NCBI GenBank assembly: GCA_040767355.1
Contig: JAXGOS010000022.1
Coordinates: forward strand, 16,148-80,147
Source of the DNA: Aggregatilineaceae bacterium
GTDB taxonomy: Bacteria > Chloroflexota > Anaerolineae > Aggregatilineales > Aggregatilineaceae
Direction: 5' to 3'
DNA length: 64,000 bases
Every line of letters begins with the position of its first letter. Within the stretch, counting starts at the first letter, position 1. The notes beneath the pieces are model-generated. The model was not told the DNA's origin and searched no databases. It worked only from the letters and a program-made list of their open reading frames with translations. This document shows positions 33,823 to 43,551 of the stretch, piece after piece. A program made the position numbers and the translations under genes.

Positions 33823-34182
33823 ATGAGTTTGAACGAGTGGATCTTTATTGGCCTCTTCTTTGCATTGAGCTGGACTCTACCAGCGGTGCCCATCGTTTTG
33901 GGCAAGATCCTCGCCCCTCACCGGCCTAACCCGGTCAAACAGCAGGTGTACGAATGCGGTGTCGAAACCTACGGCGATACGCGCGTCCAGTTCCACGCGC
34001 AGTATTACGTCTTCGCGCTGGTGTTCTTGCTGTTCGACGTTGAGCTGGTCTTCCTGTTCCCCTGGGCGGTGGCCTACAACCAGTTAGGGTTGTTCGCGCT
34101 CTTCGAGATGGCGGTCTTCATCTTCTTGTTGGTCGTCGCTCTAGTCTATACGTGGCGCAAAGGCGCTTTGACATGGGCATAA
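33823..34182 (+). CDS. nuoA: NADH-quinone oxidoreductase subunit A
   Basis: 119 aa, 3 TM. Motifs YECGVETYG and FDVELVFLFPWAV. Confidence 0.9.
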   Translation: MSLNEWIFIGLFFALSWTLPAVPIVLGKILAPHRPNPVKQQVYECGVETYGDTRVQFHAQYYVFALVFLLFDVELVFLFPWAVAYNQLGLFALFEMAVFIFLLVVALVYTWRKGALTWA

Positions 34183-34260
34183 CCCGACAGGTCGGTAGCG
34201 TGACGTTGAGCCACCGGCCTTTTTTTGCTCGTCGTACCGAATCTCGCCGGAGATGACAGA

Positions 34261-35439
34261 ATGACAGAGTTGTTACAGGATATTGGTTTGTCACACGGCC
34301 TGGCCGTACTCATCGCCAAAACGGTGGGCGTGTTCGTCGTCGGGATTTTCGGCCTTCTGTGGACGCTGGTCGGCATCTGGATCGAGCGCAAGCTGGCGGG
34401 CCGCTTCCAGGACCGGTTGGGTCCCAACCGCGTCGGCCCGTTCGGCCTGATCCAGACCGTCGCCGACACGGTCAAGATCCTGTTGAAAGAAGACCTGATG
34501 CCCACCGGCGTCGACCGCTGGGTGTTCAACCTGGCGCCGATCGTGTCGGTCGTGTCGGTGATCCTGATCTGGGCCGTCGTGCCGTTCAGCGGCAGTTGGA
34601 TCGGCACCGATCTGAATATCGGCGTGCTGTACCTGGTGGCGGTGGGCGCGTTTGGCACCGTCGCGATCTTGATGGCCGGCTGGGGCAGCAACAACAAATT
34701 CGCCCTGCTCAGCGCGTTCCGTTCGGTGGCCCAGCTCATCAGCTACGAAGTGCCGATGGTGCTCGCGCTGCTGGTGCCGGTGCTGCTGTCCGGCTCGATG
34801 AGCACGCAGACGATCGTCCAGGAACAGCACATCATGTACCTGTTCGCCGTGCCGCTGACGGTGCTGATCTTCCTGACGTCCGGCCAGGCGGAAACCGGGC
34901 GCGGGCCGTTCGACCTGCTCGAAGCCGAGTCGGAGCTGGTGTCCGGCTTCCACATCGAGTATTCGGGCATGAAGTTCGGCATGTTCTACGTGGCCGAGTT
35001 TCTGCATGCCTTCACCATCGGCGTGCTGACGGCGATCCTGTTCATGGGCGGCTGGCGCGGCCCCTTCGCTGAGGATGTGCCGCTGTTGGGGTTCGTCTAC
35101 CTCATGATCAAGAGCCTGGTGGCCTACGTCGTGCTGATCTGGGTGCGTATGACCCTGCCTCGCCTGCGCATCGACCAACTGCTCGACTTCAACTGGAAGT
35201 TCCTGGTCCCGCTCAGCCTGGTCAACTTGCTGGTGGTCGCGTTCGTGTGGAAGGTCGTGCCGGACACCGACCAGATCAGCGACCTGGGCGACGCGATCGT
35301 GCCGACGCTGGTGCTGCTGGTGGTGAATATCGCCATGATCGCGGTCGTGGGCGCCATCCTGCGCGAGCGCGGGCGACGCGAGCGGCAGCGGATCGAGGCG
35401 CGGATGACCGCAGCGAAACCTGCGGCGGCGGGTGATTAG
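34261..35439 (+). CDS. nuoH: NADH-quinone oxidoreductase subunit H
   Basis: Motifs GRFQDRLGPNRVGPFGLIQ and AETGRGPFDLLEAESELVSGFHIEYSGMKFG. GGAG RBS before ATG 34261. Confidence 0.9.
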   Translation: MTELLQDIGLSHGLAVLIAKTVGVFVVGIFGLLWTLVGIWIERKLAGRFQDRLGPNRVGPFGLIQTVADTVKILLKEDLMPTGVDRWVFNLAPIVSVVSVILIWAVVPFSGSWIGTDLNIGVLYLVAVGAFGTVAILMAGWGSNNKFALLSAFRSVAQLISYEVPMVLALLVPVLLSGSMSTQTIVQEQHIMYLFAVPLTVLIFLTSGQAETGRGPFDLLEAESELVSGFHIEYSGMKFGMFYVAEFLHAFTIGVLTAILFMGGWRGPFAEDVPLLGFVYLMIKSLVAYVVLIWVRMTLPRLRIDQLLDFNWKFLVPLSLVNLLVVAFVWKVVPDTDQISDLGDAIVPTLVLLVVNIAMIAVVGAILRERGRRERQRIEARMTAAKPAAAGD

Positions 35440-42026: not shown

Positions 42027-42027
42027 G

Positions 42028-43551
42028 TTGAACTTCTCGACTGATACCCAGGCGAGTGTAATCGCAATCCTGCCCGAAATACTCATGACGATCCTGGCCA
42101 TCGCGGTGCTGGTCTACGACGTGATCTGGCCCCAGGAACGGCGCGTTCAACTGGGCTACGTGGCCGGGTTCGGACTGATGGCTATCGCGGGCGTGGTCTG
42201 GCTGGTCGGCGTGCCACAGGCGGGCGGGCTGCAAGAGCAGTTGTTGCTGGGTGGTATGGTCCGGCACGACGACATGGCCCAGATTTTCCGCGTGATGGTC
42301 ATCCTGGCGGGCGCGTTGAGCTGCCTCCTGGCGATGGGCGTGCTCAAGCTGCGGGCGCGCGGCGATTTTTACGCCGTGCTGATCGTGGCGGTGATCGGCG
42401 CCAGCCTGATGAGCGCCGCCGCCGACCTGATCATGATCTTCCTGGCGCTGGAGACGACCTCGATCACGCTCTACCTGCTAGCGGGTTATCTGCGCGACGA
42501 CGACCGCAGCACCGAAGCGGGCCTGAAATACTTCCTGTTCGGCGCGTTCACCTCGGCGTTCACGCTGTATGGCCTGTCGCTGGTGTATGGCCTGACCGGC
42601 CACACCAATATTTACGCGCTGGGCAAAGACCTGGCGACCGGCGGCCTGCCCGATCCGCCCGTGTTGATCGCCCTGGGGATGGTCATGGTCGGCTTTGGGT
42701 TCAAGATCAGCGCGGTGCCGTTCCACTTCTGGACGCCGGATGTCTACGAAGGCGCGCCGACCCCGATCACGGCCCTGTTGAGTTCGGCCAGCAAGGCGGC
42801 GGCGGTGGGCCTGCTGCTGCGCTTCTTGCTGGCGGTGTTCCCGCCGCCGGAACTGCTCGGCGCGCTGGATGGCATCAAGGATTACAGCGCGTACTGGGTG
42901 CAGCTCACCGCGGTGCTGGCCGTCGTGTCGATGACGTTGGGCAACGTGCTGGCGCTGGTCCAGACGAATATCAAGCGCCTGCTGGCCTATTCGACCATCG
43001 CGCACGCCGGGTATATCCTGATCGGCGTGGCGGCCATCTCGACCGACCGCAGCGGCGACGGCGTGGCGGCGGTGGCGTTCTATATGTTCATGTACGTCCT
43101 GACGAATATTCTGGCGTTTGGCGTGGTCATCCTGTTCTCCAACGCGACCGGCAGCGACGAGATCCGTGACCTGGCCGGGCTGAGCCGCCGCAATCCGTGG
43201 CTGGCCCTGGCGATGACCGTGGCACTGCTCAGCCTGGGCGGCATCCCGCCGGCGGCGGGCTTCGTCGGCAAGTTCCTGCTGTTCCGCGCGGCGGTGAACG
43301 CCAATCTCGTCTGGCTGGCGCTCGTCGGCATCATCAACGTGATCATCGGCCTTTACTACTACCTGGTCGTCGTCAAGGTGATGTATATGGAGCGTGGCGA
43401 AGACGAAGACCGGCCGATCCCGGTCACCACGCCGTACTCGTGGGCGCTGGGGATCGCCGTGGCGGGCGTGCTGCTGTTCGGCACGATCCTGGTCACGCCG
43501 CTGCTCGACTGGGCCACCGACGCGGCTCACGCACTGTACGTGCTGCTGTAA
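42028..43551 (+). CDS. nuoN: NADH-quinone oxidoreductase subunit N
   Basis: Motif FKISAVPFHFWTPDVYEGAPTPITALLSSASK. TTG start 5 nt after a GGAGG and 1 nt after the nuoM2 stop. Confidence 0.9.
   Translation: MNFSTDTQASVIAILPEILMTILAIAVLVYDVIWPQERRVQLGYVAGFGLMAIAGVVWLVGVPQAGGLQEQLLLGGMVRHDDMAQIFRVMVILAGALSCLLAMGVLKLRARGDFYAVLIVAVIGASLMSAAADLIMIFLALETTSITLYLLAGYLRDDDRSTEAGLKYFLFGAFTSAFTLYGLSLVYGLTGHTNIYALGKDLATGGLPDPPVLIALGMVMVGFGFKISAVPFHFWTPDVYEGAPTPITALLSSASKAAAVGLLLRFLLAVFPPPELLGALDGIKDYSAYWVQLTAVLAVVSMTLGNVLALVQTNIKRLLAYSTIAHAGYILIGVAAISTDRSGDGVAAVAFYMFMYVLTNILAFGVVILFSNATGSDEIRDLAGLSRRNPWLALAMTVALLSLGGIPPAAGFVGKFLLFRAAVNANLVWLALVGIINVIIGLYYYLVVVKVMYMERGEDEDRPIPVTTPYSWALGIAVAGVLLFGTILVTPLLDWATDAAHALYVLL

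What the first reader, a model, noticed from the sequence alone, without database searches (positions are those of the whole stretch)
33823..43551. Membrane-arm-only nuo cluster (A-H-J-K-L-M-M-N) with duplicated nuoM and an elongated nuoL
Seen in sequence:
- Eight consecutive plus-strand genes with short gaps encode NuoA, H, J, K, L, M, M and N. A promoter-like element precedes them and a strong terminator follows.
- nuoB, C, D, E, F, G and I are absent. The A-H gap is 78 nt and the H-J gap is 9 nt.
- Both M copies carry NuoM hallmarks (WH(I/L)GVDG(L/I)S and the HTWLPDAH-type motif).
- NuoL is 749 aa.
Established knowledge:
- E. coli NuoL is 613 aa.
- Canonical complex I operons run A to N with a single M.
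- A '2M' class of complex I, with a second NuoM and a lengthened NuoL lateral helix, has been described (Chadwick and colleagues, 2018) and proposed to pump an extra proton.
Inference: this cluster fits that class. The complete lack of Q-module and N-module genes at the locus means the peripheral arm must be encoded elsewhere, perhaps shared with another nuo set, or the membrane arm may pair with a different electron-input module.
Basis: partly seen in the sequence, partly recalled or inferred. Interest (0 to 1): 0.6.

Follow-up and report, generated by a model that had tools for sequence, protein, structure and literature searches.

The report
Membrane arm of two-NuoM complex I
These eight genes encode the membrane half of the already described "two-NuoM" respiratory complex I of Anaerolineae (Chloroflexota), and the quinone-reducing half (nuoB, fused nuoCD, nuoI) lies on another contig, so the layout is real but ordinary for this lineage.

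Summary
nuoA-H-J-K-L-M1-M2-N (33823-43551, + strand) is one tight, terminator-bounded cluster with no nuoB/C/D/E/F/G/I.

The genome is an Anaerolineae MAG (84.5% complete). It also carries:
- a detached Q-module operon on contig C21 (IscX-like gene, nuoB, fused nuoCD, nuoI);
- a full 14-gene nuo operon on C2;
- a group-4 [NiFe]-hydrogenase cluster on C7.

This split layout, with fused nuoCD, is what the literature reports for Chloroflexi "2M" complex I (PMC7117926, citing Chadwick 2018). It recurs in at least 10 independent MAGs and three closed or near-closed genomes, so it is not an assembly artefact.

Both M copies fall in the NuoM clade, not with MrpD. The NuoL lateral helix carries one extra 26-residue module (about +30 aa). 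The other ~105 of the 136 extra residues lie in loops.

Caveats:
- the same helix lengthening is common in sister clusters with a single nuoM, so it does not count pump subunits;
- M2 lacks the conserved TM7 lysine in all orthologues checked;
- the electron donor is unresolved.

This scan has already reported the layout and each caveat on other DNA.

Verdict: new member of a known kind, low interest.

The parts
33728..33756 (+). promoter-like site TTGCCT-17-TATACT (extended -10 TG), 67 nt upstream of nuoA
   Evidence: It matches 9 of 12 positions, and the count of such sites in the region is not above shuffles (3 found, 2.3 expected). It is a candidate only.
33823..34182 (+). nuoA (119 aa)
   Evidence: PF00507, 127.6 bits. 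GGAGG lies 10 nt upstream of the ATG.
34225..35439 (+). nuoH (404 aa from TTG 34225; more likely 392 aa from ATG 34261, which has a GGAG ribosome-binding site)
   Evidence: PF00146, 372 bits; NF004741, 320 bits, above cut-off 305; sequence read.
35449..36024 (+). nuoJ (191 aa)
   Evidence: PF00499, 115.9 bits.
36047..36397 (+). nuoK (116 aa)
   Evidence: PF00420, 93.3 bits; NF004322, 134 bits, above cut-off 128.
36426..38675 (+). nuoL (749 aa). The proton-path residues D178, K229, H254, K342, K399 and D400 (E. coli numbering) are conserved.
   Evidence: NF005141, 593.6 bits, above cut-off 556; residue check; AlphaFold2 model m232d76aadfa7, pLDDT 82.8.
38358..38594 (+). Lateral helix HL of NuoL (residues 645-723) with two 26-residue 'IDG' modules (IDG at 674-676 and 700-702). 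E. coli and the one-module canonical NuoLs have one module.
   Evidence: Anchor-to-anchor distance is 78 aa, against 47 in E. coli and 51 in the G013 canonical NuoL. AlphaFold2 gives a continuous helix 642-748. D646, D670, I700, D701 and G702 are invariant in 71 homologues.
38692..40395 (+). nuoM1 (567 aa). It keeps E144, K234, K265, H322, H348 and E407 (E. coli NuoM numbering) and has a lineage-specific ~49-aa insertion at residues ~351-397.
   Evidence: TIGR01972, 500 bits; alignment; sister to canonical Chloroflexi NuoM in the tree.
40422..42026 (+). nuoM2 (534 aa), a divergent NuoM paralogue. The TM7 Lys (K234) is replaced by Leu, and a NuoL-like His sits in TM8 (MIHAG). E144, K265, H322, H348 and E407 are kept.
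   Evidence: TIGR01972, 451 bits; basal branch inside the NuoM clade, SH-aLRT 100. K234 is L/M/T in 9 of 9 aligned orthologues and non-K in 18 of 19 surveyed. TM8 His.
42028..43551 (+). nuoN (507 aa). E133, K217, K247 and K395 are conserved.
   Evidence: TIGR01770, 404.8 bits, above cut-off 332.6; residue check.
43574..43615 (+). intrinsic terminator-like hairpin (14 bp, 10 G-C pairs) plus T-tract

Best explanation
**What it is.** The cluster is the membrane (P-module) operon of the Anaerolineae/Chloroflexi-type '2M' complex I.

**Partner.** Its partner is the separately encoded Q module on contig C21 (minus strand):
- IscX-like gene, 15334-15618
- nuoB, 14648-15337
- fused nuoCD, 12762-14606
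- nuoI, 12086-12721

Together these give an 11-protein enzyme with no nuoEFG of its own. It exists alongside a separate canonical 14-gene complex I on C2.

**Inferred mechanism, by homology with solved complex I.** Electrons reach cluster N2 in NuoB and reduce menaquinone in the NuoB/NuoCD/NuoH pocket. The resulting charge and conformational wave runs along NuoA/J/K and then through four antiporter-like subunits. The gene order suggests N, M2, M1, L. A NuoL lateral helix lengthened by one 26-residue module (about 39 A) straps them together.

**Shown here**
- gene content and the detached partner operon;
- conserved catalytic and proton-path residues;
- NuoM-clade membership of both M copies;
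- the helix module duplication;
- conservation of the split layout across the class.

**Inferred, not shown**
- that the two loci assemble into one enzyme;
- that four pump subunits sit in one complex;
- a 5 H+/2e- stoichiometry;
- the electron donor.

My split on the donor is about 50% ferredoxin or another non-NADH donor acting directly on the Q module, about 35% NuoEFG borrowed from the C2 operon, and the rest unknown.
For: **Family assignment.** All eight products are assigned by Pfam and NCBIfam.

**Inventory of the genome.**
- It holds exactly one orphan membrane arm (C15) and one orphan Q module (C21). The C2 operon (A-N) and the C7 hydrogenase cluster each have their own B/C/D/H/I.
- nuoE, nuoF and nuoG are single-copy, all in C2.

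**Q module is a real quinone reductase.**
- NuoB has the four N2 cysteines.
- NuoCD keeps the H224/H228 loop and Y273.
- It has no NiFe cysteines, whereas the C7 large subunit keeps them.

**Conservation of the layout.**
- The same A-H-J-K-L-M1-M2-N order, with no B/CD/I within 5-10 kb, occurs in at least 10 independent MAG loci.
- It also occurs in three closed or near-closed genomes. There IscX-B-CD-I lies 35, 237 and 740 kb away, and a 14-gene operon is present too.
- In G015 (100% complete) the split 2M set is the only complex I. There is one nuoD homologue and one A-H-J-K-L-M-M-N cluster, so the two loci must work together there.

**Phylogeny.** The clade M1 + M2 + canonical M + E. coli M has SH-aLRT 100. 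MrpD, NuoN and NuoL are each separate at 100.

**Lateral helix.** It measures 78 aa against 47-51 in the one-module reference NuoLs (E. coli, G013 canonical). IDG motifs are 26 residues apart, and AlphaFold2 gives a continuous helix 642-748.

**Literature.**
- PMC7117926 states that Chloroflexi 2M complexes have nuoLM1M2N with nuoBCDI separated and nuoCD fused.
- PMC9040806 reports a ~26-aa HL insertion as a feature of 2M complexes; PMC6606698 describes them as having a lengthened NuoL.
Against: - There is no physical evidence of assembly, and no such enzyme has been purified.
- M2 lacks the TM7 lysine of the Glu-Lys pair that every canonical antiporter-like subunit has. It may not be a standard pump.
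- The lengthened helix is not specific to two-nuoM clusters. In the class survey 25 one-nuoM split-type clusters also measure 76-78 aa. Five measure 102-103 and three measure 129-132. Seven canonical operons, including this genome's own, measure 80-81.
- The MAG is 84.5% complete with 5.4% contamination. A third locus with a dedicated N module cannot be excluded. G027, a relative with a one-M split complex, has a stand-alone nuoE-nuoF pair near a nuoG-like gene.
- The assignment of C21 and C15 to one organism rests on binning plus the conserved co-occurrence in closed genomes.
Confidence: 0.88

Rival explanations
1. M2 is not a fifth proton route. It is a modified spacer or relay subunit. The enzyme has four antiporter-like subunits, but its stoichiometry or ion specificity is not simply canonical plus one proton.
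For: - The TM7 Lys (E. coli K234) is L/M/T in 18 of 19 M2 orthologues. It is K in 47 of 48 M1-type and 21 of 22 canonical M.
- M2 carries a NuoL-like TM8 His in 8 of 9 orthologues.
- M2 belongs to a large Lys-less NuoM lineage. At least 29 of the 150 best 50%-identity cluster representatives lack the Lys. Named members include Selenomonadales and Armatimonadota.
Against: - E144, K265, H322, H348 and E407 are all kept.
- The lineage is old and conserved, which argues for a working channel.
- The added TM8 His may take over the missing charge.
Confidence: 0.3
2. The 2M membrane arm and its Q module borrow NuoEFG from the 14-gene operon. Both enzymes are then NADH:quinone oxidoreductases that differ only in pumping capacity.
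For: - There is only one nuoE, one nuoF and one nuoG in the assembly, all in C2.
- G027 (one-M split type, no canonical operon) has a free-standing nuoE-nuoF pair and a nuoG-like gene within 6 kb. Split-type complexes may therefore use a detached N module.
Against: - In G015 (100% complete) the 2M split complex is the only complex I. Its sole NuoF homologue is a 676-aa fused subunit next to a molybdopterin formate-dehydrogenase-like gene and mobA, not a nuoEFG set.
- The NuoD part of the C21 protein lacks a ~23-aa segment present in canonical NuoD. It aligns end to end with NdhH, MbsL (6u8y_L, the P. furiosus MBS/Mbx complex) and MbhL, all from enzymes without NuoEFG.
- The literature proposes ferredoxin for 2M complexes (PMC6606698).
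Confidence: 0.35
3. The cluster works without any redox module, as an Mrp-like cation/proton antiporter.
For: No redox subunit is encoded at the locus.
Against: - NuoH, NuoA, NuoJ and NuoK form the quinone-site and E-channel interface, which only makes sense with a Q module. They score as complex I families, not Mrp.
- MrpD from Chloroflexota forms a separate clade.
- A matching orphan Q module exists in this genome and co-occurs in every closed relative examined.
- No mrpE/F/G-type genes are present at the locus.
Confidence: 0.03
4. The gene order is an assembly or binning artefact that joins unrelated regions.
For: The source is a 52-contig MAG with 5.4% estimated contamination.
Against: - The identical order and spacing occur in L014 (92-98% protein identity) and at least 9 further independent assemblies.
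- They also occur in three closed or near-closed genomes.
- GC content is even across the region.
Confidence: 0.01

Closest known systems
Chloroflexi (Anaerolinea thermophila-type) 2M complex I. Source: Chadwick, Hemp, Fischer & Orphan 2018, ISME J 12:2668, read here only through PMC7117926.
   Same: - nuoL-M1-M2-N with two NuoM paralogues.
- nuoB/C/D/I separated from the membrane-arm operon.
- nuoCD fused.
- A second, canonical complex I in the same genome.
   Different: Nothing substantive. This is another uncultured Anaerolineae genome. Lineage-specific loop insertions are present: residues 351-397 in M1, and residues 385-415 and 503-548 in NuoL.
Chloroflexus aggregans '2-M' complex I, Cagg_1620-1631 (PMC8004040)
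   Same: It has an extra nuoM between nuoM1 and nuoN and no nuoEFG in the cluster. It co-exists with a 14-gene operon, and both are transcribed in situ.
   Different: There the genes are described as one cluster (nuoABCDHJKLMMN). Here the Q-module genes are at a separate locus and nuoC and nuoD are fused.
Nitrospira 2M complex I, clade 3 (PMC6606698, PMC9040806)
   Same: It has a second NuoM and a ~26-aa insertion in the NuoL lateral helix. It lacks nuoE and nuoF. Proposals for it are a higher H+/e- ratio and a ferredoxin link.
   Different: It belongs to a different clade and has a different gene layout: no nuoH in the cluster and an enlarged nuoG homologue. Its proposed role, reverse electron flow for the rTCA cycle, has no support in this heterotroph-like Anaerolineae genome.
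Eleven-subunit complex I without NuoEFG, such as cyanobacterial and chloroplast NDH-1 (PDB 6hum and others)
   Same: It has no N module of its own. The NuoD part aligns end to end with NdhH, without the ~20-aa segment found in canonical NuoD. NdhF is the best solved-structure match of this NuoL.
   Different: NDH-1 has one NdhD per complex, and the solved NdhF chain compared here (6hum_F) has a one-module lateral helix of about 48 aa. NDH-1 also carries oxygenic-phototroph-specific ferredoxin-docking subunits, which are absent here.
'Green' complex I of rhizobia and Complex_I_3 of Ca. Manganitrophaceae (PMC9040806)
   Same: Both have more than three antiporter-like subunits, and the lateral helix is lengthened by ~26 aa where a second NuoM is present.
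   Different: In those enzymes NuoL is replaced by MrpD-like subunits. Here a true NuoL is kept and neither extra subunit is MrpD-like.

Membership tests
2M complex I (Chadwick et al. 2018) | Two nuoM-family genes in tandem between nuoL and nuoN | tested here: met
   M1 at 38692-40395 and M2 at 40422-42026. TIGR01972 scores are 500 and 451 bits (cut-off 264).
2M complex I (Chadwick et al. 2018) | Both extra-pump candidates belong to the NuoM clade, not to MrpD, NuoN or NuoL | tested here: met
   IQ-TREE with 52 rows gives the NuoM clade (M1, M2, canonical M and E. coli NuoM) SH-aLRT 100 and Chloroflexota MrpD a separate clade at 100. The best MrpD models reach only ~130-137 bits.
2M complex I (Chadwick et al. 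2018) | An insertion of ~26 aa in the NuoL lateral helix | tested here: met
   Anchor distance is 78 aa, against 47 (E. coli) and 51 (G013 canonical). There are two IDG modules 26 residues apart. This feature is met but not discriminating in this class: 33 of the 34 one-nuoM split-type clusters measured have at least two modules.
2M complex I, Chloroflexi subtype (as summarised in PMC7117926) | nuoB, nuoC, nuoD and nuoI separated from the membrane-arm operon, with nuoC and nuoD fused | tested here: met
   C21 carries nuoB (229 aa), fused nuoCD (614 aa; PF00329 plus PF00346) and nuoI (2x4Fe-4S). The same holds in 28 relatives examined.
2M complex I (Chadwick et al. 2018) | No nuoEFG belonging to the cluster | tested here: met
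   There is no nuoE/F/G at either locus. The only copies are in the C2 14-gene operon. The genome is only 84.5% complete.
2M complex I (Chadwick et al. 2018) | Full set of proton-path residues in both NuoM copies | tested here: inconclusive
   M1 has all six residues. M2 lacks the TM7 Lys (Leu instead), keeps the other five and gains a TM8 His. I could not read whether the original paper treats this as defining.
2M complex I (Chadwick et al. 2018) | Physical complex with four antiporter-like subunits and a raised H+/e- ratio | not testable with these tools
   This needs purification, cryo-EM and stoichiometry measurements. AlphaFold2 here handled single chains only.
Mrp-type cation/proton antiporter | MrpA/MrpD-clade large subunits with MrpB/C/E/F/G and no NuoH/NuoA | tested here: not met
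   NuoH, NuoA, NuoJ and NuoK are present. L, M and N fall outside the MrpD clade. tblastn with NuoM1 found no further antiporter-like (MrpA/D-type) gene in the genome: the only hits were on C15, C2 and C7.

The most novel reading that the evidence does not exclude
The number of 26-residue modules in the NuoL lateral helix may act as a ruler that sets how many NuoM-type subunits are built into the enzyme, whatever the number of nuoM genes. On that reading, the many one-nuoM Anaerolineae clusters with 2, 3 or 4 modules would contain repeated copies of one NuoM (or borrow M2). This would include the genome's own 14-gene operon, whose NuoL helix is also about 80 aa. The two-gene M1/M2 state seen in this window would then be a later, subfunctionalised form of an older homo-oligomeric design.
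Probability: 0.08. Interest if true: 0.7.

Novelty: new member of a known kind. Interest (0 to 1): 0.2.

Why it matters
As it stands, this finding adds one more uncultured Anaerolineae genome to a published class of complex I. It confirms that the "missing" peripheral arm is simply encoded at a second locus. It does not change what is known.

The useful residue lies in three open points that the 2M literature read here (only papers citing Chadwick 2018) does not mention:
- the second NuoM belongs to a conserved lineage without the TM7 lysine;
- the lateral-helix lengthening taken as the 2M signature does not track the number of nuoM genes in this class;
- the electron donor of the enzyme is unknown.

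All three could be settled by purifying the enzyme from a cultured relative. This scan has already raised all three on other genomes.

Tried and rejected
- **Primary paper.** Chadwick et al. 2018 could not be read by DOI or PMC id. Its content is taken only from citing papers (PMC7117926, PMC8004040, PMC9040806, PMC6606698).
- **Hug et al. 2013 (PMC3971608).** I checked it for an explicit statement of the split operon. The main text only mentions a 14-subunit complex I in RBG-9, so I did not use it.
- **Sequencing runs.** There is therefore no read-level check of the assembly and no expression evidence.
- **Greedy ORF picking.** In this 65% GC DNA it chose wrong-strand ORFs several times. Genes were re-identified by tblastn or Pfam.
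- **Relaxed regular expression for helix anchors.** It misplaced the first anchor in six loci. The counts quoted use the stricter pattern plus reading by eye.
- **AlphaFold2 of the two NuoLs.** It returns only secondary structure, with pLDDT 51-78 in the helix. It cannot say whether the extra module is straight or folded back.
- **Co-occurrence statistic.** I considered computing one for fused nuoCD against the split membrane arm over 121 class genomes. I dropped it because paralogue assignment by identity alone was unsafe. Closed genomes and genomes with a single complex I were used instead.
- **Lys-less NuoM representatives.** The gene context of the Selenomonadales and Armatimonadota Lys-less NuoM is therefore unknown.
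- **Rejected readings.** Stand-alone Mrp-like antiporter, shared Q module, and assembly artefact (see the rival explanations).

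
Full report
**1. Observation**

The window region 33823-43551 holds eight consecutive + strand ORFs. 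Pfam and NCBIfam identify them as NuoA, H, J, K, L, M, M and N.
- Both M copies score far above the NuoM subfamily cut-off. TIGR01972 gives 500 and 451 bits against a cut-off of 264. The best MrpD models give only about 130-137 bits.
- NuoL is 749 aa.
- The H-J gap is 9 nt. The A-H gap is 78 nt if NuoH starts at ATG 34261, which has a GGAG ribosome-binding site.
- A strong hairpin with a T-tract follows nuoN at 43574-43605. The upstream promoter-like site at 33728-33756 is a weak consensus match and is not above chance.
- Flanking genes are unrelated: a TIR-TPR protein, a PAP2 protein and an aminotransferase upstream, and a small Cys-motif ORF, thioredoxin and F-type ATP synthase genes downstream.

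**2. Where the rest of complex I is**

The window is contig C15 of a 4.06-Mb, 52-contig MAG that is 84.5% complete with 5.4% contamination. Its closest public relatives are Anaerolineae/Chloroflexota MAGs. Whole-genome searches and annotation show three further complex-I-like loci.
- **C2** has a canonical 14-gene nuoA-N operon.
- **C7** has a group-4 [NiFe]-hydrogenase cluster. It includes a HycI protease, and its large subunit keeps the NiFe cysteines.
- **C21** has, on the minus strand, an IscX-like gene (PF04384) overlapping nuoB by 4 nt, then nuoB, a fused nuoCD (614 aa) and a two-cluster nuoI.

The C21 proteins are a genuine quinone-reducing module. NuoB has the four N2 cysteines. NuoCD has the H224/H228 loop and Y273 and no NiFe cysteines. 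So the genome contains exactly one orphan membrane arm and one orphan Q module. nuoE, nuoF and nuoG occur once each, all in the C2 operon.

**3. Not an artefact, and a conserved design**

- The order A-H-J-K-L-M1-M2-N, with no B/CD/I in 5-10 kb flanks, recurs in at least 10 independent MAG loci. One of them has 92-98% protein identity to this cluster.
- In three closed or near-closed class genomes (G013, G119, G115) the same cluster exists. IscX-like-nuoB-nuoCD-nuoI lies 35, 237 and 740 kb away, and a separate 14-gene operon is present.
- The B-CD-I block was found in all 28 relatives examined. The IscX-like gene was detected in 14 of them.
- In G015 (100% complete) the split 2M set is the only complex I. 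It has one nuoD homologue and one A-H-J-K-L-M-M-N cluster. This is the best genomic argument that the two loci encode one enzyme.

**4.

*(a) Does one M group with MrpD?* No. In a 52-row maximum-likelihood tree, M1, M2, the canonical Chloroflexi NuoM and E. coli NuoM form one clade (SH-aLRT 100). It is separate from Chloroflexota MrpD, NuoN and NuoL, each at 100. M1 is sister to canonical NuoM. M2 is the divergent basal branch. M1 and M2 share about 36% identity, so this is an old duplication.

*(b) Is the extra NuoL length in the lateral helix?* Partly.
- I measured from the xDxxY anchor after TM15 to the G(Y/R)xxxY anchor of TM16. The helix is 78 aa here, 47 in E. coli and 51 in the G013 canonical NuoL.
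- The extra roughly 30 aa is a second copy of a 26-residue module. IDG motifs sit at residues 674-676 and 700-702. D646, D670 and D701 are invariant in 71 homologues.
- AlphaFold2 gives one continuous helix 642-748, with modest confidence there.
- The other ~105 extra residues relative to E. coli lie in loops. These include a His-rich loop at 385-415 and an insert at 503-548.

*(c) Is it an assembly artefact?* No (section 3).

**5. Comparison with what is known**

- PMC7117926, summarising Chadwick et al. 2018, states that cultured Chloroflexi such as Anaerolinea thermophila have 2M complexes with nuoL-M1-M2-N, with nuoBCDI separated from the operon and nuoCD fused. That is exactly this arrangement.
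- PMC8004040 describes the contiguous Chloroflexus aggregans version next to a 14-gene set.
- PMC9040806 reports the ~26-aa helix insertion, and PMC6606698 a lengthened NuoL and the lack of nuoE/F. Both also give the proposal that 2M complexes connect quinol and ferredoxin.

The finding is therefore a new member of a described kind. This scan has also already reported the same membrane-arm-only layout in another Anaerolineae genome (e1-2278332).

**6. Caveats on mechanism**

*The lengthened helix does not count pump genes in this class.* I surveyed about 70 L-M(-M)-N loci from about 60 genomes.

| Cluster type | Helix length (aa) | Number of clusters |
|---|---|---|
| Two nuoM | 77-80 | 17 |
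| Two nuoM | 103 | 1 |
| One nuoM, split type | 76-78 | 25 |
| One nuoM, split type | 102-103 | 5 |
| One nuoM, split type | 129-132 | 3 |
| Canonical 14-gene | 51 | 3 |
| Canonical 14-gene | 80-81 | 7 |

- The one-nuoM values correspond to two, three and four 26-residue modules.
- The 80-81 group includes this genome's own C2 operon. Its 763-aa NuoL carries a conserved LDWxFWHDFVH module.
- I checked ten of the one-M loci by coordinates for a hidden second M and found none.
- Earlier agents of this scan reached the same conclusion on other DNA (e1-5159066, e1-1224358, e1-3681277).

*M2 lacks the TM7 lysine (E. coli K234).*
- The position is L, M or T in 18 of 19 M2 orthologues. It is K in 47 of 48 M1-type and 21 of 22 canonical NuoM.
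- M2 has a NuoL-like His in TM8 in 8 of 9 orthologues. This agrees with e1-5254713.
- A search of 1.84 billion cluster representatives shows a large Lys-less NuoM lineage with the signature L(A/G)(G/A)xxP(F/L)HxWSPD. It reaches Selenomonadales and Armatimonadota.
- The other five key residues of M2, and all key residues of M1, N and L, are conserved.

*The electron donor is open.*
- For a donor other than NADH: G015 has only the 2M enzyme. Its sole NuoF homologue is a fused subunit beside a formate-dehydrogenase-like molybdoenzyme. The NuoD part of the C21 protein lacks a ~23-aa segment of canonical NuoD. It aligns end to end with NdhH, MbsL (6u8y_L, the P. furiosus MBS/Mbx complex) and MbhL.
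- For a borrowed or detached N module: this genome has a nuoEFG in C2. G027 (one-M split type) has a free-standing nuoE-nuoF pair near a nuoG-like gene.

**7. Verdict**

The cluster is the membrane-arm operon of the published Anaerolineae-type 2M complex I, and its Q module was located on contig C21. Novelty is low. The open questions are general to the class and have been noted before in this scan: the role of the Lys-less M2, the meaning of helix module number, the electron donor, and the IscX-like partner.

Noticed in passing
G000 contig C21:12086-15618 (locus L011:3086-6618, minus strand): This is the detached Q-module operon. An IscX-like gene (PF04384, 94 aa) overlaps nuoB by 4 nt, followed by fused nuoCD and nuoI. 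The IscX-like gene is conserved upstream of nuoB in 14 of 28 relatives examined. It could be a built-in Fe-S maturation helper or an extra subunit.
   Followed up: partly
window 40422-42026 (NuoM2): M2 replaces the TM7 lysine with Leu (GVLAGVWPFHNWSPD) and has a NuoL-like His in TM8 (SMIHAG). It also carries a 14-aa insertion after TM12. The Lys-less NuoM lineage is large and extends to Selenomonadales and Armatimonadota.
   Followed up: yes
G000 contig C2:110123-112414 (L013:13123-15414), and loci L080, L097 and L113: The canonical 14-gene operon's NuoL (763 aa, one nuoM) also has an ~80-aa lateral helix, with a conserved LDWxFWHDFVH module. Related one-nuoM clusters have three or four tandem 26-residue IDxxVN modules (102-132 aa). 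What the surplus helix binds is unexplained.
   Followed up: partly
G000 contig C2:108461-109723 (L013:11461-12723): NuoJ of the canonical operon is 420 aa and has a DUF4397 domain inserted (PF14344, 69.7 bits). NuoH of the same operon is 474 aa. Both are far longer than usual.
   Followed up: no
G000 contig C7:43516-51065 (L012): This is a group-4 [NiFe]-hydrogenase-like cluster with a HycI protease. Its NuoH-like gene matches the model in three pieces in different frames (C7:49327-49959). That points to frameshifts, a pseudogene or assembly errors.
   Followed up: no
window 37578-37670 (NuoL residues ~385-415): A His/Glu-rich loop (HGEHHAAENGHGHGEHEEPDG...) is inserted before the MGGL motif. 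A similar His-rich loop is present in the canonical NuoL of C2 and in relatives.
   Followed up: no
window 43672-47490: Directly downstream of the nuoN terminator lie several genes. In order: a 61-aa Cys-motif ORF, a 238-aa thioredoxin-domain protein on the minus strand, and an F-type ATP synthase operon. The ATP synthase has an unusually long subunit a (449 aa) and a b-delta fusion (233 aa, ATP-synt_B plus OSCP).
   Followed up: no
L011:3762-5606 (NuoCD of C21): The NuoD part lacks a ~23-aa segment (E. coli [24 protein letters not shown]) that canonical NuoD has. The match to cyanobacterial NdhH, MbsL (6u8y_L, the P. furiosus MBS/Mbx complex) and MbhL runs through this region to the C-terminus in one stretch. 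This may be a signature of Q modules that dock no NuoEFG.
   Followed up: partly
L078 (G015:C50) and L082 (G027:C11): G015 has the 2M enzyme as its only complex I. Its only NuoF homologue is a 676-aa fused subunit next to a formate-dehydrogenase-like molybdoenzyme and mobA. G027 (one-M split type) has a stand-alone nuoE-nuoF pair, a nuoG-like gene and a 1051-aa NuoF-GltD-like fusion within 12 kb.
   Followed up: partly
L067 (G047) and L068 (G111): In these two genomes the nuoB-nuoCD-nuoI block lies immediately upstream of nuoA of the canonical operon, not at a distant locus.
   Followed up: no
window 28979-30376: A TIR-domain protein is fused to TPR repeats (PF13676 plus TPR). It looks like a possible defence or signalling protein, a few kb upstream of the nuo cluster.
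   Followed up: no
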